Positions 9,393-36,269 of a stretch of 46,605 bases of DNA are shown one piece after another; within the stretch, counting starts at the first letter, position 1, and the number at the start of each line of letters is the position of its first letter. Where the stretch lies: NCBI GenBank assembly GCA_009885935.1, contig VFJT01000118.1, positions 1 to 46,605 of the forward strand, written 5' to 3'. Position numbers and translations under genes: made by a program. The notes beneath the pieces were generated by a model. The model worked only from the letters and a program-made list of their open reading frames with translations. It did not search any database and was not told the DNA's origin. The stretch comes from Gammaproteobacteria bacterium (lineage in GTDB: Bacteria; Pseudomonadota; Gammaproteobacteria; UBA1113).

Positions 9393-10730
9393 TTACAATT
9401 TCCTGGATTGCCACGTCGCTGCGCTCCTCGCAATGACGATTGCTTCCGCCACCGTATGAAAAGAGCCAAAAACCAAGACCGTTTCGTTGGCGGCGGCGTT
9501 ATCCTGCGCAGCACAGTAAGCATCGTTGATTGTGCCATATTTTTGATACGATGTAATCCCCAAGGCGATAAAATCAGCCTCAATGGCTTCTAAAGGGGCC
9601 GCTTTTCTGTCTTTTAAGGGCGCTAAATACCATTTAGCAGCGCAATGCTGCCAGGGTAAAAGGCTCGCTAACCTGTCTTTAGTCGCCAACATGGAAAAGA
9701 CTATATGCACCGTTCCCTGCCAGCCTAAGAGACTAAGTTGCCGCTGTAACTGGATGCTGGCTTGCGGGTTATGTGCCACATCAATAATGCACCTAGGCTC
9801 ATATCCTATAGTTTGAAAACGCCCTGTTACATAAACCGTGGCTAAGCCCTGACAAATCGCCTCTGCCATAATCGGTAATCTAGGTTCCAATAGTGTCAAC
9901 GCTTGTAAGGCCAATGAAGCATTGTGCAATAACACCGCTGGCTTGGGCAGATCCCTATAATGATGGTCTTTATTCTGCCAATGCCAAGCCTCACCTTCCT
10001 CTTGAAAATAAAAATCAGTCCCCTGAAAATATAATAGAGCGCCTTTGGCCGCGGCACTTGCAACCACCGTGCTCACCGCATCCCTATCGCCATAAATGGC
10101 GGGTTTTCCCGAACGAAAAATCCCTGCTTTTTCAGTACCGATTTGCTCGCGACTGTCTCCTAAATAGTCTGTGTGATCTATATCGACCGTCGTGACAATC
10201 GCCACATCGCTATCGACGATATTCACTGCATCTAAGCGACCACCCAAACCTACTTCTAAAATAATGACGTCTAATTTATCTTTTTGAAACAGATACAATG
10301 CAGCCAAAGTGCTCCATTCAAAGTAAGTTAAGGTAATATTGTCTCGAGCCACTTCTACCGCTGCAAAGGCTTCACCTAAGGCGGCATCGCTGGCGGTATG
10401 ACCGGCGATGACAATGCGCTCGTTGAATTGCAACAAATGCGGCGAGGTATACGCGCCACAACGATAACCCGCAGCGCCGTAAATAGCGGCTAAAGTCGCT
10501 ACTGTGCTGCCCTTACCATTAGTGCCACCCACCGTAATGACGGGACAATTGAATTTAAGCAGGCAAAGTCGTTCAGCAACCATTGACGCTCGATTTAAAG
10601 ATAGATCAATTTCTTGTGTATGTTGGTGCTCTATATAGGTAAGCCATTCTGCTAGATTTTCAGGGCAGACACAGGGGTCTGCCCCTACGTTAAGATTCGC
10701 ATCTTGAAATGCTTTGGGTATATTAGCCAC
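9393..10730 (-). CDS. folC: Bifunctional folylpolyglutamate synthase/dihydrofolate synthase
   Basis: VITVGGTNGKGST, YTSPHL..FNERI, LEVGLGGRLDAVN, DVAHNP, VFGSFHTV; lies between accD and cvpA. Confidence 0.96.
   Translation of the reverse strand: MANIPKAFQDANLNVGADPCVCPENLAEWLTYIEHQHTQEIDLSLNRASMVAERLCLLKFNCPVITVGGTNGKGSTVATLAAIYGAAGYRCGAYTSPHLLQFNERIVIAGHTASDAALGEAFAAVEVARDNITLTYFEWSTLAALYLFQKDKLDVIILEVGLGGRLDAVNIVDSDVAIVTTVDIDHTDYLGDSREQIGTEKAGIFRSGKPAIYGDRDAVSTVVASAAAKGALLYFQGTDFYFQEEGEAWHWQNKDHHYRDLPKPAVLLHNASLALQALTLLEPRLPIMAEAICQGLATVYVTGRFQTIGYEPRCIIDVAHNPQASIQLQRQLSLLGWQGTVHIVFSMLATKDRLASLLPWQHCAAKWYLAPLKDRKAAPLEAIEADFIALGITSYQKYGTINDAYCAAQDNAAANETVLVFGSFHTVAEAIVIARSAATWQSRKL
9403..9438 (-). 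repeat. CGTC-type palindromic repeat (RPE-7-like) forming the 3' end of folC
   Basis: Minus strand CGTCATTGCGAGGAGCGCAGCGACGTGGCAATCCAG, translated as VIARSAATWQS; 29/32 identical to 46516-46547. Confidence 0.8.
10663..10688 (-). repeat. GTAG-type REP (family A) inside the 5' end of folC
   Basis: GTAGGGGCAGACCCCTGTGTCTGCCC, 25/26 identical to the intergenic copy at 24789-24814; translated as VGADPCVCP. Confidence 0.9.
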
Positions 10731-10734
10731 CTCT

Positions 10735-11589
10735 TCACTGCGCCAAAAGCTTAGCCAATAAGCCTGAAATACGATCGCGCAATTCGCGCCTATCGATGAT
10801 TAAATCGATATGTCCGTGCTCTAATAGAAATTCACTGGTTTGAAAGCCTTCGGGTAATATTTCACGCACCGTTTGTTCTATGACTCTAGGTCCCGCAAAG
10901 CCGATCAAAGCCTTAGGCTCGGCGATGATGATATCGCCTAACATGCTTAAACTAGCCGACACCCCGCCCATAGTAGGATTGGTCAATACAGAAATGTAGG
11001 GTAATTTTTGTTGATGAAACCGTTGCAAAGCGGCGCTGGTTTTTGCCATTTGTAATAAAGAGGTTAGACCTTCTTGCATACGCGCGCCACCGCTGGCGGA
11101 GATACACACAAAAGGGCATTTTTTTTCTAATGCGCGTTCAATACCACGCACAAATTTTTCTCCTACTACAGCGCCCATAGAGCCGCCTATGAAGGAATAT
11201 TCGAATACGGCCACGACTATAGGTTTTTCTTTGAGTTGCCCTTCCATCACTACCAAGGCATCTTGTTCGCCGGTCTTTTTTTGCATATGCACCAAGCGAT
11301 CTTTATAGCGCTTGGTGTCTTTAAATTTCAGTAGATCGCTGGCTTGTAGTTCATTGGCCAATTCCTTGCCGCTATCCGCATCTAGCAATTGGTCTAAGCG
11401 CAGGCGCGCGCTGATGTAAAAATGATGGCTACATTTTGGACATACTTCGGCGTTGCGTTCCAATTCTGGCTTATACAGCATACCTTTACATTGCGGGCAA
11501 TTTACCCATAAACCCTCCGGTACATTGGCACCCTTGCCTTCAGTCGAAGTGCGGATCTTAGATGGTAATAATTTGGACAGCCAACTCAT
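10735..11589 (-). CDS. accD: Acetyl-CoA carboxylase carboxyltransferase beta subunit
   Basis: VPEGLW..CP.C...CPKC zinc finger, [36 protein letters not shown]. Confidence 0.97.
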
Positions 11590-19630: not shown

Positions 19631-19656
19631 GGGCAGGCACGGGGGCCTGCCCCTAC
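19631..19656 (-). repeat. GTAG-type REP (family A), singleton
   Basis: GTAGGGGCAGGCCCCCGTGCCTGCCC, identical to 30078-30103 and 31264-31289. Confidence 0.92.
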
Positions 19657-24757: not shown

Positions 24758-24814
24758 GTAGGGGCGGGCCCCTGTGCTCGCCCTGCCAGGGCAGACACGG
24801 GGGTCTGCCCCTAC
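24758..24814. repeat. REP doublet (REPIN-like): two inverted family-A REPs with a 5-nt spacer
   Basis: GTAGGGGCGGGCCCCTGTGCTCGCCC-TGCCA-GGGCAGACACGGGGGTCTGCCCCTAC. Confidence 0.92.
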
Positions 24815-30077: not shown

Positions 30078-30134
30078 GTAGGGGCAGGCCCCCGTGCCTG
30101 CCCTAGGGGGGCGACCACAGGGGGTCGCCCCTAC
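30078..30134. repeat. REP doublet (REPIN-like), family A
   Basis: GTAGGGGCAGGCCCCCGTGCCTGCCC-TAGGG-GGGCGACCACAGGGGGTCGCCCCTAC. Confidence 0.92.
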
Positions 30135-30331
30135 GCTATTTTTAGCATTTCAAATAAATAATATATATTTTAATTATGTTTTTAATATTTTTCAAGGGCT
30201 AACCTCACTTATTTCATCATAACCTTATGGTTTTCTTAAAAAGGGCAGTTATTTTGCGTCTAAACCCGTGCGAAACCACGCTTTTCTGCTAGGCTATTAC
30301 TAGAGTGTGTTATTTTACAGAGAGTTACATA

Positions 30332-30643
30332 ATGACTAAGTCTGAATTGATCGATAAATTGTATAGCCTGTTCCCTAGTCTAGGGCCAGAAAAAGCGCAT
30401 ATGGCTGTGAATTTAATTGTAGATAAAATGGCCGAAAGCTTATTGAATGGCGAACGAATCGAAATCCGCCGCTTAGGTAGCTTCGCCCTACGCCATCACA
30501 AGCCCCGCGCTGCTCATAATCCTAAGACCGGTCAGAAGTTAGTGGCTAAAGAAAAATACAGCGTACACTTTAAGCCCAGCAAGGAATTAAAAGAAGCTAT
30601 CAACGAAGCTCGTGATAACGGTGTTCCTCCTGGGGAAGAATAA
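30332..30643 (+). CDS. ihfB: Integration host factor beta subunit
   Basis: MTKSELI, GERIEIR..GSF.L.H..PR.A.NPKTG, HFKP.KEL. Confidence 0.9.
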   Translation: MTKSELIDKLYSLFPSLGPEKAHMAVNLIVDKMAESLLNGERIEIRRLGSFALRHHKPRAAHNPKTGQKLVAKEKYSVHFKPSKELKEAINEARDNGVPPGEE

Positions 30644-30910: not shown

Positions 30911-31222
30911 TTATTCGTCGTTAGCGGCATCGCCATGTAAAACACCGGATAAACGTTGTTTTAACACTTGACCGGCATGAAACACCAGTACGCGTCGTGC
31001 CGTTATTTCCGCAGCTTCACCCGTTTTAGGGTTACGGCCAGGACGGCTGGACTTATCGCGGGTAATAAATTTACCAAATTTAGACAACAACACATTGCCT
31101 TCGTTAATGACGGCATCGTTGATTAGGGTAAAAAAGGCTTCTACCACTTTTTGGCTGTTTTTTCTATCTAAATCCATCTCTTTGCACAGATGTTCCATTA
31201 AATTTGCTTTAGTTAAGGCCAT
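30911..31222 (-). CDS. ihfA: Integration host factor alpha subunit
   Basis: MALTKA.L.E.L, V.LS.FG.F..RDK..RPGRNPKTGE...ITARRV..F.AGQ.LK; downstream of pheT. Confidence 0.93.
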   Translation of the reverse strand: MALTKANLMEHLCKEMDLDRKNSQKVVEAFFTLINDAVINEGNVLLSKFGKFITRDKSSRPGRNPKTGEAAEITARRVLVFHAGQVLKQRLSGVLHGDAANDE

Positions 31223-31263: not shown

Positions 31264-31321
31264 GTAGGGGCAGGCCCCCGTGCCTGCCCTAACTAGGGCA
31301 ACCACAGGGGGTTGCCCCTAC
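31264..31321. repeat. REP doublet (REPIN-like), family A
   Basis: GTAGGGGCAGGCCCCCGTGCCTGCCC-TAACTA-GGGCAACCACAGGGGGTTGCCCCTAC. Confidence 0.92.
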
Positions 31322-31352: not shown

Positions 31353-33809
31353 TCAATTACGCAATACCGCGGCTAACTCTGTAGCCAGGGCATTTACTAC
31401 TTTTGCCATCCAATCATTGACTTCATCGTCTACCAAGGTGCGCTCACTATGCTGCAACATCATGGCAACGGCTAGACTCTTATGACCAGAGGCAACCCCT
31501 TGACCCTGGTAAACATCGAATAAGCGCACAGCGACAACATCAAACGGTGCAATTTGCGCCCGAATGACCGCTTCTATGCGTTCGTATGTTACCTCGTTAG
31601 ACACCGTAAAAGCTAAATCGCGCCTAATCGCCGGGTACTTTGAAAGTGTAGCAAACCTAGGCAAAGTTGCCAGTGCCAAGGCCTCTAATGTGAGCTCAAA
31701 CACAAAGATAGGGCCATCTAAGTCGAATTGTGCCACCAAACTGGGGTGTAAAGCCCCTAATTCGCCTATTTTTTGATTGCCGTGGTAGATAGCGAGTGCC
31801 TGTTTAGGGTGCAGACAGGGGTTATTTTCCGGTTTAAAGGTGCATTCTTCCAGTAACTTAAATTGCTGTAATAGGGCCTCTACATCCCCCTTCATATCAA
31901 AAAAATCGACTTTCTGCGCAGCGAGCCCCCATTGCAAAGGCCAACGCTGGCCGGCAATAATGCCTGCAACGCGCATCTCTTCGTGGATATCTTCTATAAG
32001 GGATTCCGGAGCAGCATAACCCTCTGTGGCTGCCCTATCAAGCCAAGCATGGGAGCCTGCGATAATGGGACTATAAACCCGGCCTATCTCAAAAAAGCGC
32101 ATTCTGTCTTGTTGGCGATTTTGATTGTACTGTACCGCTTGTAGCAAGCCTTGCCATAAACTAGTGCGCATCACCGCCAAATCGGCAGAGATCGGATTAC
32201 GCAACGACAAGGGCGTTCTGTCGGGAAATAAAAGTGCTTCCTTCTTTTTATCTACAAAACTGTAGGTGATGAGTTCTTGATAAGCCCGCGCCATAAGGGC
32301 GGTGCTGATTTGCGCACTGTCTTGCTGCTGTTTGTTATCCGCCTTAGGCATCAATACTTGCTGTGGATACTGATGAGCAATACGATCATAGCCATAGACA
32401 CGCGCAATTTCTTCTATTAAGTCGATCTCGGCCACTACATCGGCCCTAAAACTAGGCACAATGACACGCCAGCTTTCTTTATCATAGTCTAATGACATAC
32501 CTAATCCACGCAGAATAGATTCTACGTCAGCATTAGCGATTTCAACTCCTAAAATACGCGTGATGCGACTTTTGCGCAAGGTAATGATAACTTCTGGTGG
32601 CAAGGCTGCAGCAGAAGTCTCTTCAATCACAGGCGCCGCTTTACCGCCGCTGATGGCCAATAATAATTCTGTAGCGCGATCTAAAGCCATCGCTTGTAGT
32701 TGCCAATCGACACCGCGTTCAAAACGATGTGAGCTATCCGTATGTAAACCGTAACGACGCGCAACACCGGCTAAGGCCAGCGGCGTAAAATAAGCGCTTT
32801 CTAGAAAAATATTCGTTGTGCTATTTTGCACAGCGCTTTCTACCCCACCCATCACTCCGGCTAAAGCCAATACTTTTTTATCATCGGCAATGACCACAGT
32901 GTTTGCATCTAAAGCAATGGTTTTGCCATCCAGCAACGCTACATTTTCACCGGCGAGGGCTTTACGCACATGAACATTGCCTTGTAACTTATCGGCATCG
33001 AAAGCATGCAAGGGTTGGCCTAGTTCCAACATCACATAATTAGTGACATCGACTACGGGCGATAGCGATCTGAGGCCACTGCGGCGTAACCGCTCTTTTA
33101 ACCACAATGGGGTGGCTACACTATTATCAATGCCGCTGATTGTGCGCCCTACATAACGACCACAAGAAAGCGTATCGTCAATAAATACCTTAGGCGTAGC
33201 TTGTTTTTCTACCTGAATCGAGGGGGCTGTCAATGGCGAGGCAAAAGGCTGGCCGCTGGCAATGGCTAATTCGCGCGCCAAACCTTGTACCGATAAACAA
33301 TCGCCGCGATTGGGCGTTAAATCCAAGCGTATAGATTGATCGTCTAGCTGCAAATAACGACGCAAATCCTCGCCTAAAGGCGCGTCAGCTGGCAATTCTA
33401 AAATACCGCTGCTGTTATCCGTTAATCCCAGTTCGCTGGCTGAACACAACATGCCTTCTGAATCTACGCCGCGTAAACACGAACGTTTTATTTTAACAGT
33501 GCCGCCACTCAATTCTGCTCCCACCATCGCCACCGCTACTTTCAAACCAACACGCACATTGCTAGCCCCGCACACGATTTGCAAAGGCGTTTCTAATGGC
33601 AGCACTTGAACGCCGCATACACGCAATTTGTCTGCATCGGGATGAGGCTTAACGGTTAAAACTTCACCTACCAGAACATTAGAAAAATGTTCGGCTACAG
33701 GCGTGCATTCATCTAATTCATGACCCAAGGCCGTAAATAAAGCAATTATTTTCTCGCTAGAAATAGCGGGGTTTACCCAGGTGCGTAACCAGTTCTCAGA
33801 AAATTGCAT
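31353..33809 (-). CDS. pheT: Phenylalanine--tRNA ligase beta subunit
   Basis: MQFSENWLR, HPDADKL, TPNRGDCLS, LGQPLHAFD, RFERGVD, DLIEEIARVYGY, SKYPAIRRDLA. Confidence 0.97.
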   Translation of the reverse strand: MQFSENWLRTWVNPAISSEKIIALFTALGHELDECTPVAEHFSNVLVGEVLTVKPHPDADKLRVCGVQVLPLETPLQIVCGASNVRVGLKVAVAMVGAELSGGTVKIKRSCLRGVDSEGMLCSASELGLTDNSSGILELPADAPLGEDLRRYLQLDDQSIRLDLTPNRGDCLSVQGLARELAIASGQPFASPLTAPSIQVEKQATPKVFIDDTLSCGRYVGRTISGIDNSVATPLWLKERLRRSGLRSLSPVVDVTNYVMLELGQPLHAFDADKLQGNVHVRKALAGENVALLDGKTIALDANTVVIADDKKVLALAGVMGGVESAVQNSTTNIFLESAYFTPLALAGVARRYGLHTDSSHRFERGVDWQLQAMALDRATELLLAISGGKAAPVIEETSAAALPPEVIITLRKSRITRILGVEIANADVESILRGLGMSLDYDKESWRVIVPSFRADVVAEIDLIEEIARVYGYDRIAHQYPQQVLMPKADNKQQQDSAQISTALMARAYQELITYSFVDKKKEALLFPDRTPLSLRNPISADLAVMRTSLWQGLLQAVQYNQNRQQDRMRFFEIGRVYSPIIAGSHAWLDRAATEGYAAPESLIEDIHEEMRVAGIIAGQRWPLQWGLAAQKVDFFDMKGDVEALLQQFKLLEECTFKPENNPCLHPKQALAIYHGNQKIGELGALHPSLVAQFDLDGPIFVFELTLEALALATLPRFATLSKYPAIRRDLAFTVSNEVTYERIEAVIRAQIAPFDVVAVRLFDVYQGQGVASGHKSLAVAMMLQHSERTLVDDEVNDWMAKVVNALATELAAVLRN
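32010..32066 (-). repeat. Decayed REP doublet embedded in frame in pheT
   Basis: attatcGCAGGCtCCCaTGCtTGgCt-TGATA-GGGCAgCCACAGaGGGTTatgctgct; 15/20 and 16/18 identity to the two halves of the doublet at 31264-31321. Confidence 0.75.
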
Positions 33810-33824
33810 AACAGTTTAAGATCC

Positions 33825-36269
33825 TTAATGTGGGCGGTCTTCTTTACGGCGCTGGGTTTTAGGGGATCGTTTCACCACTTTATCTAAAACAGCATCGCTG
33901 ATACTAGTGCTTTCTACGATGGGTTCTTCTTTTAACGGTTCCGGTGAATGATCTAAGGCCAGTGCTAATACTTCGTCAATCCAACGCACCGGTTTAATAT
34001 TAAGATTTTTGGTAATATTATTGGGAATTTCTTTTAACTCAGCACGATTCTCATAGGGAATGAGTACGGTCTTAATACCACCGCGATGCGCTGCCAATAA
34101 TTTTTCTTTTAAACCCCCTATAGGCAACACTTCACCGCGCAAGGTGATCTCTCCAGTCATGGCAACACTGGCTTTAACGGGGATCCCCGTTAGAGCCGAT
34201 ACCAAGGCCGTACACATCCCTATACCGGCACTAGGCCCATCTTTAGGCGTAGCCCCTTCGGGTACATGCACATGAATATCCACTTTGGTATAAAAATCAG
34301 GTTGTATGCCCAGTTGTCTGGCGCGACTGCGCACCACTGTCATAGCCGCTTGTATGGATTCTTGCATGACATCGCCTAGATGCCCTGTATAAGTAGATTT
34401 ACCTTTACCGGCAACGGCACACGCTTCAATCGTTAACAGTTCACCGCCCACTTGTGTCCAAGCAAGGCCCGTGACCTGGCCTACGCGATCTTCTTCGTCA
34501 GCCTTACCAAATCTGAATTTTTCCACCCCTAAATAGCGTTCTAAATTGCGTTTAGTAATGATGACTTTTTTGCGATCTTTTTTAACCAATAACTCTTTAA
34601 CCGCTTTTCGGCAACATTTGGCAATAGCGCGTTCCAAATTACGCACGCCCGATTCGCGGGTATAATAGCGAATGATATCTTGCAACACTTCCGTAGACAT
34701 GCTGAATTCTTTATTTTTTAAGCCATGCATTTCCATTTGCTTGCTCAACAAATGTCGTTTAGCGATGTTGATTTTTTCATCTTCGGTGTATCCAGCCAAA
34801 CGGATCACTTCCATTCTATCCAATAAAGCATCGGGAATATTCAATGAATTGGCGGTACAAATAAACATAACGTCAGACAAATCATAATCGACTTCTAAAT
34901 AGTGATCGCTAAAAGTATTATTTTGTTCAGGGTCCAGCACTTCTAGTAAAGCAGACGCCGGATCGCCGCGAAAATCCATCGCCATTTTATCCACTTCATC
35001 GAGCAGGAATAGTGGATTGCGGACTTTTGCTTTAATCAATTTTTGAATGATTTTCCCTGGCAAAGCACCTATATAGGTTCGTCTATGACCGCGAATTTCC
35101 GCCTCGTCCCGTACGCCCCCTAAGGATACACGTGCAAAATGACGTCCTGTGGCACGAGCAATAGATTCACCCAAAGACGTTTTACCGACGCCAGGAGGAC
35201 CTACAAAGCATAAAACAGGTCCTTTGATTTTTTTAACCCGTTGTTGTACCCCTATGTATTCAATGATACGTTCTTTGACTTCTTTTAACCCATAATGATC
35301 TTTTTCTAAAATGTTGATGGCCTGACGCAGATCTTTATTCACCGGCGTTGCTTCTATCCACGGTACGCTGACCATAGTATCTAGATAATTTCTAGATACG
35401 CTGGCTTCTGCCGACATCGGTGGCATAGCATTTAGTTTCTTTAATTCTGATTGTGCTTTCTCACGCACTGATTCAGGCAATGCTTTTATTTTACTTTCCA
35501 GCTGTTGCATCTCATCTTCAGCACCTTCCTCGCCCGCCATCTCTTTTTTGATGGCTTCTAGCTGTTCATTCAATAAATAATCGCGTTGTCTTTTCTCCAT
35601 TTGTCCCTTGACGCGGCCTTTAATGCGATTTTCCATTTCTATAATTTCAAGCTCAGAACCTATGCAAGCGATGAGTTCTTCTACCCTTTTTGAAACATCG
35701 AGTATTTCCAATAAGCGTTGTTTTACCATCAGTTTCAAGGGCAAATGTGCGATAACGCTATCGGCCAAACGAGAAGCATCGTCTATACCCATCAAAGAAG
35801 ATAAGACTTCCGCGGGCAATTTGCGATTGTTTTTAAGGTATTGTTCAAACTCAGATAAAATGAGATGGCTTAACACTTCATTTTCGCGTTCTTTTAGCGG
35901 CAAATCGGCTAACACTTCCACCTGCACTTGGTAAAAGGGTTCATCGGCTACATATTCTAATGCTTTACCGCGCTGCAAACCTTCAACCAAGACTTTGACT
36001 GTGCCGTCCGGCAGTTTTAACACTTGCAATACGCGCCCGATACACCCTAATTCATATAAGTCCTCGCTGGGGGGATCGTCTTTATCTGAATCTTTTTGCG
36101 CTGTCATAAAAACCCATTTCTCGCCTTGCGCTGCGGATTCCAGAGCGGCGATCGATTTTTCTCGACCTACAAACAGCGGCAAAACCATATGGGGGAAGAT
36201 GACCACATCGCGTAAAGCCAGAGCGGGCATGACTAATTTTTCTTCGGCCTGTAAGGTTGAATCTGACAT
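33825..36269 (-). CDS. lon: Lon protease
   Basis: [45 protein letters not shown]. Confidence 0.98.

What the first reader, a model, noticed from the sequence alone, without database searches (positions are those of the whole stretch)
32010..32066. A complete REP doublet fossilised in frame inside PheT
Seen: PheT has an extra loop of roughly 18-20 aa between RFFEIGRVYSP and IHEEMRVAG. Its DNA aligns with the intergenic doublet at 31264-31321 (15/20 left arm, 16/18 right arm, 5-nt T...A spacer like the one at 24784-24788), and the 57-nt length preserves frame. An intact doublet would read VGAGPRACPxRATTGGCPY; PheT reads IIAGSHAWLDRAATEGYAA. Every Cys and Pro has been replaced and the GTAG/CTAC ends are lost. 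Known: in-frame palindromic insertions are established for Rickettsia RPEs, whereas GTAG REPs are considered mostly extragenic. Inference: with the two folC cases, this lineage is turning REPs into protein sequence in essential genes, with young and old stages both visible.
Basis: partly seen in the sequence, partly recalled or inferred. Interest (0 to 1): 0.8.

Follow-up and report, generated by a model that had tools for sequence, protein, structure and literature searches.

The report
Decayed REP doublet inside PheT
A small mobile DNA palindrome landed in frame in a surface loop of an essential tRNA-charging enzyme and has since decayed into ordinary protein sequence; relatives show the fresh and empty states, but such insertions are already known.

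Summary
pheT (31353-33809, minus strand, 818 aa) carries 22 extra residues at the tip of a beta-hairpin in its CLM domain. The 57 nt at 32010-32066 are a decayed copy of this genome's GTAG-tagged REP doublet. A profile of 129 genomic doublets scores it 17.4 bits across both arms. The maximum was 11.1 bits in 25 genome shuffles and 8.3 bits in 901 kb of real DNA from distant relatives.

Comparative data settle it. Same-genus relatives have an empty site (G003, G005). Others have an intact single REP unit (P0003, VGADPRVCP), an intact doublet (P0004, VGAGPRARPNRATTGGCPY) or a half-decayed doublet (P0002) at the same codon position. The REP family occurs only in that subclade.

The palindrome is now gone: -16 kcal/mol against -43 to -50 for intact doublets. 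The loop is modelled with low confidence.

At least 13 other conserved genes of this genome also carry in-frame REPs, among them dnaE, lpxB, murD and aroK.

However, intragenic in-frame GTAG REPs, including dimers coding 20-30 aa and cases in tRNA synthetases, were described by Di Nocera et al. 2013, and this scan has noted them in other genomes. This is a new, well-documented member of a known kind. The added value is one site showing empty, fresh and fossil states.

The parts
31353..33809 (-). pheT, phenylalanine-tRNA ligase beta subunit, 818 aa, intact
   Evidence: ORF and translation P0001. Pfam B3_4, B5, CLM, FDX-ACB and tRNA_bind domains. E 2.6e-232 to P. aeruginosa PheT 4P71. The AF2 model matches PheRS beta chains at E about 1e-100.
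32010..32066 (-). 57-nt decayed REP doublet, read in frame as I582-A600 (IIAGSHAWLDRAATEGYAA). The GTAG and CTAC ends are lost.
   Evidence: 37 of 58 aligned columns identical to doublet 31264-31321. The same site holds an intact doublet in P0004 and an intermediate in P0002. Fold energy is -16.0 kcal/mol, z -0.4.
32018..32060 (-). Core of the decayed doublet that still matches the genomic REP-doublet profile (model positions 7-50)
   Evidence: nhmmer 17.4 bits, E 0.0096. Shuffle maximum 11.1 bits. Real-sequence maximum 8.3 bits.
31992..32069 (-). Whole lineage-specific segment P581-E606. 26 codons stand where empty-site relatives have 4 (GGG GTA GGA AAA), a net gain of 66 nt or 22 aa.
   Evidence: Codon-level comparison with G003 and G005. 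AF2 pLDDT is 59, 53 and 67 for blocks 581-610, between strands 569-583 and 605-622.
31264..31321 (.).
   Evidence: nhmmer 58.6 bits. Fold energy -43.9 / -47.9 kcal/mol, z -7.5 / -7.9.
30078..30134 (.). Intact intergenic REP doublet
24758..24814 (.). Intact REP doublet with the 5-nt spacer TGCCA
10663..10688 (-). Single REP unit read as VGADPCVCP inside the open frame of a FolC-like Mur-ligase gene (ORF 9396-10799), upstream of the Pfam domains
   Evidence: The only start codon upstream of it in the frame is a GTG at codon 23.
19631..19656 (-). Single REP unit

Best explanation
A REP doublet of this genome's own GTAG-tagged family, plus about 9 nt of flank (net +66 nt), was inserted into the DNA coding the tip of a beta-hairpin in the catalytically inactive CLM domain of PheT.

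The addition was a multiple of three and fell in the stop-free frame that reads GTA GGG as Val-Gly, so the essential gene stayed open and the repeat was translated as an extra loop (shown). The copy then decayed. 21 of 57 bases now differ from an intact doublet, mostly GC to AT. The GTAG and CTAC tags and the hairpin are gone, and the Cys/Pro/Gly-rich peptide has become IIAGSHAWLDRAATEGYAA (shown).

Today it is most likely a tolerated, flexible surface loop with no function of its own (inferred).

The loop is a repeatedly occupied site in this genus. The states seen are empty, intact singlet, decayed singlet, intact doublet, old doublet, and a longer repeat-derived insert. Their distribution does not follow the gene tree. 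The history therefore needs several insertions, exchange of alleles by recombination, or both (partly shown, partly inferred).
For: **Profile match.** 17.4 bits over both arms, against a maximum of 11.1 in 25 shuffled genomes and 8.3 in 901 kb of real distant sequence.

**Site states in relatives**:
- G003, G005, P0006 and P0008 are empty.
- P0003 has YSVGADPRVCPIHEE, the translation of the second commonest unit (62 copies).
- G004 has GTAGGGGCAGACCGTGTCTGCCC in frame.
- G007 and P0007 have decayed singlets.
- P0004 has VGAGPRARPNRATTGGCPY, one residue from two intergenic doublets.
- P0002 has LIAGSHAWLDRAATEGYPY, which still keeps the CCnTAC end.

**REP distribution.** Counts were G000 414, G007 124, G004 93, G006 29, G005 24, G003 7, G001 2, G027 2 and 0 in 23 other relatives. 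All loops of 39 or more residues belong to that subclade.

**Loss of the hairpin.** -16.0 kcal/mol (z -0.4) against -43 to -50 (z -5.7 to -7.9) for intact doublets.

**Structure.** Mean pLDDT is 90.1, but the insert scores 53-67, between strands 569-583 and 605-622. It lies inside Pfam CLM 477-708.

**Independent sample.** A contig of run X5 carries the insert unchanged.

**Discordance with the tree.**
- G000 is sister to P0003 (bootstrap 95) and is closest to it in every 60-column window except the one at the loop.
- The AU test rejects a G000+P0002 clade (p 0.002).
- It also rejects a G000+P0002+P0004 clade (p 3e-77).

**Same behaviour elsewhere in the genome.** 13 of 19 ORFs tested have Pfam matches on both sides of, or spanning, an in-frame REP.
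Against: - Each arm alone is not significant with a single-unit profile. At DNA level the case rests on the two arms together plus the relatives.
- The insertion is not a clean cut-and-paste. 78 nt replace 12 nt, and no target duplication can be read.
- DNA of P0002, P0003, P0004 and P0007 was not obtainable, so their states are known only as protein.
- No RAYT transposase was found in G000. The genus yielded only an IS200-like gene and fragments, with no REPs beside them. The moving enzyme is therefore unknown.
- Neutrality is inferred, not measured. The loop is 24 of 28 residues identical between G000 and P0002, which are 81% identical overall. AF2 draws a short helix at 588-596. Some constraint or function cannot be excluded.
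- The groups for the AU tests were named after the tree had been seen.
Confidence: 0.88

Rival explanations
1. There was one ancestral REP insertion in the common ancestor of the REP-bearing subclade. All present states (empty, singlet, doublet, fossil) arose from it by partial deletion, decay and gene conversion from other genomic REP copies, not by repeated new insertions.
For: - All occupants share orientation and reading frame at the same codon position.
- The empty sites still contain GTAGG.
- G004 sits at the base of the subclade and G007 well inside it, yet both have singlet-derived loops of the same length.
- Orthologous REPs elsewhere appear to be refreshed. purK of G000 and G007 differs by a two-sided stem switch, GAC/GTC against GGC/GCC. 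dsbD is intact in G000 but decayed in G003, G005 and G006.
Against: - The empty loop has the same length as in outgroups without REPs and shares their V-G (P0011-13: Y.KVGQ.I.E). It therefore looks ancestral, not deleted.
- P0004's pristine doublet is nested among empty-site sequences. A clade of the three 39-residue loops is rejected at p 3e-77.
- The singlets carry the GAC/GTC stem and the G000 left arm the GGC/GCC stem.
- The flanks differ: EVIGKE in P0004 against PESLIED in G000 and P0002.
Confidence: 0.2
2. The decayed insert has been domesticated and now does something for PheRS, for example a new contact with tRNA, the alpha subunit or a partner. It would then be kept by selection.
For: - 24 of 28 loop residues are shared by G000 and P0002, whose proteins are 81% identical overall.
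- The insert is unchanged in the X5 strain, although 16 substitutions lie in the surrounding 701 nt.
- AF2 predicts a short helix at 588-596.
Against: - The closest relative, P0003, lacks it and has an intact singlet instead.
- pLDDT is 53-67.
- The CLM domain is the inactive copy of the catalytic fold (Pfam description, and general knowledge).
- Similar inserts sit in loops and linkers of 13 unrelated proteins.
- Zero changes in 66 nt is unremarkable when about 1.5 are expected at 2.3% divergence.
Confidence: 0.08
3. The likeness to REP is chance: an unrelated lineage-specific loop expansion of PheT.
For: Only 37 of 58 columns match. Neither arm alone is significant. The nhmmer E-value is a modest 0.0096.
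Against: - 0 of 25 shuffles come within 6 bits, and real sequence reaches at most 8.3 bits.
- An intact doublet, an intermediate and singlets occupy the same site in relatives.
- The loop occurs only where the REP family occurs.
Confidence: 0.02

Closest known systems
Intragenic GTAG- and CGTC-tagged REPs ('REP-decorated' ORFs), Di Nocera, De Gregorio & Rocco 2013, BMC Genomics 14:522 (PMC3733652; passages read; supplements not seen)
   Same: - GTAG-tagged hairpin repeats, singletons and inverted dimers, sit in frame inside genes for known proteins.
- Dimers encode 20-30 aa.
- The hosts named in that paper include tRNA synthetases and DnaE.
- The authors suggest that such insertions lie in loops or linkers and are neutral.
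   Different: - Here the copy is a fossil with its tags and palindrome lost.
- One site shows empty, fresh-singlet, fresh-doublet and decayed states across a genus.
- The host is an uncultured freshwater-sediment gammaproteobacterium.
- No RAYT was found.
- Whether PheT is already in that paper's Additional file 3 could not be checked.
Rickettsia palindromic elements (RPE), Ogata et al. 2000, as described in PMC10969869 and PMC3184786 (passages read)
   Same: Palindromic repeats are inserted in frame into unrelated housekeeping genes of a small genome and are translated as extra peptide segments.
   Different: RPEs are about 105-150 bp, with a conserved peptide for each family. Here the unit is 26 nt (57-58 nt as a doublet), carries a GTAG tag, and belongs to the REP class.
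REPIN-RAYT systems (Bertels & Rainey 2011, PMC3116915; search listing and start of abstract only)
   Same: There are hundreds of copies. Inverted doublets with a short spacer are the dominant arrangement (129 doublets). The two stem sides co-vary among the copies.
   Different: No RAYT gene was detected in this 99.6%-complete but fragmented assembly. REPINs are described as extragenic.
QMITE2 of Coxiella burnetii, a MITE containing a GTAG REP (PMC5896051; passages read)
   Same: A GTAG REP is embedded in a longer repeat. Some copies are in frame with ORFs or extend them.
   Different: QMITE2 is 150-190 bp, has terminal inverted repeats and 7-11-nt direct repeats, and lies mainly in 3' UTRs. 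No sequence comparison was made here.

Membership tests
GTAG-tagged REP / REPIN family of this genome | 5' GTAG tag on each unit (GTAG...CTAC on a doublet) | tested here: not met
   The genomic family has it: 451 units fit GTAGGGGC-N3-CCCCNGTG-N3-GCCC. The pheT copy reads ATTATC... and ...GCTGCT at the two ends. P0002 keeps Y-P-Y and P0004 keeps V-G...P-Y at the ends. The pheT copy is therefore a derivative, not an intact member.
GTAG-tagged REP / REPIN family of this genome | Sequence match to a profile of the family above background | tested here: met
   17.4 bits, E 0.0096, model positions 7-50. Shuffle maximum 11.1 bits. Real-sequence maximum 8.3 bits.
GTAG-tagged REP / REPIN family of this genome | Stable G+C-rich hairpin or palindrome | tested here: not met
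   -16.0 kcal/mol, z -0.4, for the pheT copy, against -43 to -50 kcal/mol, z -5.7 to -7.9, for four folds of three intact doublets.
GTAG-tagged REP / REPIN family of this genome | Two units in inverted orientation with a short spacer | tested here: met
   Both arms align, with the 5-nt spacer TGATA. 65 genomic pairs have 5-nt spacers.
REPIN-RAYT system | A cognate RAYT (Y1 transposase, PF01797) gene, usually flanked by REPs | tested here: not met
   No PF01797 match in G000. In the genus there is an IS200-like 144-aa gene in G005, a broken fragment in G004 and a weak hit in G001. No REPs lie in those three loci. The assembly has 217 contigs, so absence is not proven.
In-frame intragenic palindromic repeats (intragenic REPs, RPE-like) | The repeat lies inside a conserved gene whose frame stays open on both sides | tested here: met
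   The 818-aa ORF has no stop. Pfam CLM spans 477-708 across the insert. It aligns end to end with 4P71.
In-frame intragenic palindromic repeats (intragenic REPs, RPE-like) | Orthologues in related genomes lack the insert (empty site) | tested here: met
   G003, G005, P0006 and P0008 lack it, as do all relatives outside the subclade. 95 of 106 PheT have a 17-18-residue loop.
In-frame intragenic palindromic repeats (intragenic REPs, RPE-like) | The insert sits in a loop or linker that leaves the fold intact | tested here: met
   AF2 places it at the tip of the hairpin between strands 569-583 and 605-622, with pLDDT 53-67 against about 95 on either side. The model matches PheRS beta structures. 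This is a prediction only.
In-frame intragenic palindromic repeats (intragenic REPs, RPE-like) | The insert is present in the mature protein | not testable with these tools
   Nothing was laid from the RNA run X19. No proteomic data were available.

The most novel reading that the evidence does not exclude
The PheT hairpin tip is a recurrent landing pad, and intragenic REPs in this clade are turned over rather than simply decaying.

- At least four occupant types occur at one codon position: singlet, old doublet, young doublet, and a longer repeat with a shared 5' module.
- Their distribution is rejected by the gene tree.
- Orthologous in-gene REPs elsewhere differ by two-sided stem switches (purK) or are pristine in one genome and decayed in its relatives (dsbD).
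- No RAYT was detected in any of these genomes.

If this holds, REP copies inside genes are renewed by gene conversion or site-directed re-insertion without a resident RAYT. The genus would then offer a natural time series of how a selfish palindrome becomes protein sequence.
Probability: 0.3. Interest if true: 0.6.

Novelty: new member of a known kind. Interest (0 to 1): 0.4.

Why it matters
This shows, at one codon position of an essential enzyme, the whole life history of a selfish palindrome becoming protein: empty site, fresh singlet, fresh doublet, half-decayed copy and fossil. It offers a concrete system for asking how new surface loops arise, how fast a strong mRNA hairpin is eroded inside an essential gene, and what moves REPs when no RAYT is present.

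It also matters for annotation. Lineage-specific loops in conserved proteins of REP-rich genomes may be old repeats that nucleotide searches barely detect. The phenomenon itself is already described, so the value is as a clean, datable example and not as a discovery of kind.

Tried and rejected
- **Single-unit REP profile.** It found none of the pheT arms and gave only 6.7 bits, E 68, on the pheT CDS. The arms are too decayed one at a time.
- **Fetching DNA of the close relatives (P0002, P0003, P0004, P0007).** I used those loci as a real-sequence background instead.
- **Laying runs X8, X9 and the RNA run X19.** X8 and X9 gave only short pieces of 36-59 nt that run on into unrelated sequence. 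X19 gave nothing. This says nothing about relatives' loops or about expression.
- **RAYT search.** PF01797 was negative in G000 and uninformative in the genus.
- **GTAG as the landing target.** The empty pheT sites contain GTAGG. The empty sites of lpxB, purK and murD have no GTAG at the junction, so I dropped this as a general rule.
- **Clean target-site duplications.** Only lpxB shows a possible CAAG(A) direct repeat. In pheT, murD and ribBA the REP partly replaces older sequence.
- **Second folC case.** I did not find it with either profile.
- **Earlier notes on this genome.** The look-up returned nothing.
Full report
**What is at the coordinates.** The ORF 31353-33809 on the minus strand encodes an 818-aa PheT. 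It has the usual domains: tRNA_bind 46-147, B3_4 216-388, B5 409-474, CLM 477-708 and FDX-ACB 723-817. It matches P. aeruginosa PheT (4P71) end to end at E 2.6e-232. The finding's 57 nt (32010-32066) code I582-A600, IIAGSHAWLDRAATEGYAA. In the 4P71 alignment 22 query residues around this stretch have no partner. Lon lies upstream (33825-36269) and an HU/IHF-family gene downstream (30911-31222). An intact REP doublet sits in the spacer at 31264-31321.

**The repeat family.** The genome holding the window (G000: 2.06 Mb, 217 contigs, 42% GC) has 451 units that fit GTAGGGGC-N3-CCCCNGTG-N3-GCCC with up to 4 mismatches. The two N3 blocks co-vary as a stem. 129 convergent pairs have a 4-8-nt spacer; 65 have 5 nt and 52 have 6 nt. 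Intact doublets fold at -43 to -50 kcal/mol.

**Is the likeness more than chance?**
- Direct alignment gives 37 of 58 columns identical to 31264-31321.
- An nhmmer profile of the 129 doublets (both orientations) hits 32018-32060 at 17.4 bits, genome-wide E 0.0096, covering model positions 7-50, that is both arms.
- In 25 whole-genome dinucleotide shuffles done in 1-kb blocks, the best score was 11.1 bits.
- In 901 kb of real DNA from 181 loci of distant relatives, mostly pheT, the best score was 8.3 bits.
- A single-unit profile does not recover either arm alone.

**Orthologues.**
- PheT was found in 30 of 31 relatives searched.
- In 26 aligned sequences only G000 (+22 aa) and G006 (+34 aa) have large inserts at this loop. 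G004 has +3 and G007 +2.
- In a wider alignment of 106 PheT the loop is 17-18 residues in 95 sequences, 19-21 in 7, 39 in 3 and 51 in 1. All four of the long ones belong to the close subclade.
- The REP pattern is confined to the same subclade: G000 414, G007 124, G004 93, G006 29, G005 24 and G003 7, against 2 each in G001 and G027 and 0 in 23 others.

**The series at one site.** A protein search restricted to residues 500-720 found closer relatives.
- P0004 reads YIPI-VGAGPRARPNRATTGGCPY-EVIGKEIHEE. The 19-mer differs by one spacer residue from the frame-1 translation of two intergenic G000 doublets.
- P0002 reads YIPLIAGSHAWLDRAATEGYPYPESLIEDMHEE, the same decayed peptide as G000 but still ending in Y-P-Y.
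- P0003 reads YSVGADPRVCPIHEE, which is the translation of the second commonest unit (62 copies).
- G004 has GTAGGGGCAGACCGTGTCTGCCC in frame, a unit with 3 nt lost from its loop. G007 and P0007 have decayed singlets.
- G003, G005, P0006 and P0008 are empty (YSGVGKDIHEE and the like). Their length matches outgroups that read Y.KVGQ.I.E.
- G006's 34-aa insert begins with a 22-nt module (CCCACAGCATTTCAAGATGCAA). That module precedes REP units at several G000 loci.

**History.** On the pheT codon tree and the protein tree (loop columns removed), G000 is sister to G007 among the held genomes. Once metagenome proteins are added it is sister to P0003 (bootstrap 95). P0004 is nested among the empty-site sequences.
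- P0003 is the closest sequence to G000 in every 60-column window (88-100% in all but one early window, where it is 79%) except at the loop. There P0002 is closest, at 79% against 68%.
- The AU test rejects a G000+P0002 clade (p 0.002) and a clade of the three 39-residue loops (p 3e-77). The groups were named after the tree had been seen.

So the fresh doublet of P0004 is independent of the old doublet of G000 and P0002. The old doublet's distribution needs recombination, or replacement in the P0003 line. Whether singlets and doublets came from separate insertions or from conversion of one old copy cannot be settled without DNA of those contigs. I could not fetch that DNA.

**State of the copy now.** 21 of 57 bases differ from an intact doublet. 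By my count on the alignment, most changes are G/C to A/T, which fits a 42% GC genome. The tags are gone and the fold energy is -16.0 kcal/mol, no better than shuffles (z -0.4). The replacement of every Cys and Pro therefore follows from decay of GC-rich codons and needs no special selection. Selection against a very stable hairpin in an essential mRNA is plausible but not shown.

**Structure.** AlphaFold2 with the 106-sequence alignment gives mean pLDDT 90.1. The insert (blocks 581-610) scores 59, 53 and 67, between strands 569-583 and 605-622, with a short helix drawn at 588-596. The model matches bacterial PheRS beta chains at E about 1e-100. The site is the tip of a hairpin in the CLM domain, which is the inactive copy of the class II catalytic fold (Pfam name; general knowledge).

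**Independent samples.** A 1436-nt contig of run X5, from another study, covers 31700-32400 with 16 substitutions, no gap, and no change between 31924 and 32129.

**The wider pattern.**
- Of 322 non-overlapping profile hits, 31 lie inside stop-to-stop frames of 150 aa or more, with at least 25 aa on each side.
- I sent 19 of these frames to Pfam. 13 have family matches on both sides of, or spanning, the REP: DsbD, an MFS transporter, HypD, methylcrotonyl-CoA carboxylase alpha, LpxB, RibBA, an E2 acyltransferase, MurD, DnaE, PurK, GlnD, AroK and RsmD.
- Of the other six, one is partial (ArnT-like), three have the REP only N-terminal of the domains (an amidase, an enoyl-CoA hydratase, the FolC-like ORF of the window), and two have no Pfam match.
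- The remaining frames, mostly short, were not tested.
- 11 of the 13, and PheT, use the frame that reads VGA[GDA]P....
- Empty-site comparisons in relatives:
  - lpxB has an 81-nt insert in G000 only, in 0 of 5 relatives.
  - purK has a 33-nt insert shared by G000 and G007, with a two-sided stem switch between them.
  - In murD (+18 nt) and ribBA (+3 nt) the REP partly replaces older loop sequence.
  - dsbD is intact in G000 but decayed at the same place in G003, G005 and G006.
- No RAYT was detected.

**Comparison with what is known.** Di Nocera et al. 2013 (PMC3733652; passages read) report intragenic GTAG and CGTC REPs in several species. More than half are dimers or groups encoding 20-30 aa, and tRNA synthetases and DnaE are among the hosts. 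They argue that such inserts may be neutral in loops or linkers. RPEs of Rickettsia are the classic in-frame case (passages in PMC10969869 and PMC3184786). This scan has already noted in-frame REPs in at least eight other genomes, and one note reports recurrence at the same loop. One earlier window, from another phylum, shares 7 of 13 short words with this doublet.

The kind is therefore known. What this case adds is a fossil stage backed by a same-site allelic series. I found no paper on this lineage. My searches were those, and supplements were closed.

**Verdict.** This is a new member of a known kind, of moderate interest.

Noticed in passing
G000 contigs C171:32029-32085, C56:487-544, C34:6003-6062, C198:12070-12109, C95:21529-21567, C71:748-781, C76:23600-23639, C130:8571-8601, C106:2129-2158, C49:12875-12904, C135:4720-4750, C9:12135-12190, C62:14755-14783: 13 conserved genes carry REP units or doublets in frame, with Pfam matches on both sides of or across the REP. 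They are dsbD, an MFS gene, hypD, the MCC alpha gene, lpxB, ribBA, an E2 acyltransferase gene, murD, dnaE, purK, glnD, aroK and rsmD. Several of the copies are fully intact doublets.
   Followed up: partly
same loci as above, plus pheT 32010-32066: There is a strong frame and orientation bias. 11 of the 13 genes, and PheT, read the REP as VGA[GDA]P..., with GTA as Val. Only the MFS gene and hypD use other frames, although a single unit has no stop in 5 of its 6 frames.
   Followed up: no
window 10689-10735 (minus strand, upstream of the REP at 10663-10688); also G000 C76, C9, C107; and L002 (G006 pheT insert): A second conserved module, about ATATACCCA.AGCATTTCAAGATGCGAATCTT..C and read as P.AFQDAN.., directly precedes some REP units. 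About 11 flanks carry its core. The 34-aa insert in PheT of G006 starts with 22 nt of this module. Some REPs therefore belong to a longer composite repeat.
   Followed up: partly
window 9396-10799 (-): In the FolC-like Mur-ligase ORF the only start codon upstream of the in-frame REP is a GTG at codon 23, and it lies inside the composite repeat. The repeat may therefore supply the start and the N-terminal extension of the protein.
   Followed up: partly
G000 whole genome; L211-L213: More than 400 REP copies, but no Y1 or RAYT transposase (PF01797), in a 99.6%-complete assembly of 217 contigs. The genus shows only an IS200-like gene (G005) and fragments, none with REPs beside them.
   Followed up: partly
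G000 C49:12875-12904 versus L227 (G007 purK): The orthologous in-gene REP units differ by a two-sided stem change, GCAGAC/GTCTGC against GCAGGC/GCCTGC. These are the two commonest genomic variants. This hints at gene conversion between REP copies, or at selection for the hairpin.
   Followed up: no
G000 C171:32029-32085 versus L214-L216 (dsbD of G005, G003, G006): The linker between DsbD_N and the membrane domain holds an intact doublet in G000. The same place holds a decayed, shorter REP remnant in three relatives.
   Followed up: no
G000 C95:21496-21576 versus L219-L223 (lpxB): An 81-nt insert is present only in G000. It consists of a 33-nt leader, a REP unit and a truncated second arm, and is bounded by a possible CAAG(A) direct repeat.
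   Followed up: partly
window 33825-36269 (-) and 30305-30643 (+): pheT is preceded by lon, not by pheS. Two HU/IHF-family genes lie nearby (30911-31222 minus strand, 30305-30643 plus strand), with REP doublets in the spacers at 30078-30134 and 31264-31321.
   Followed up: no
G027 (another family of the class), contigs C21 and C2: Two near-matches to the REP pattern occur in a genome of a different family. The REP sequence type may be spread across distant lineages.
   Followed up: no
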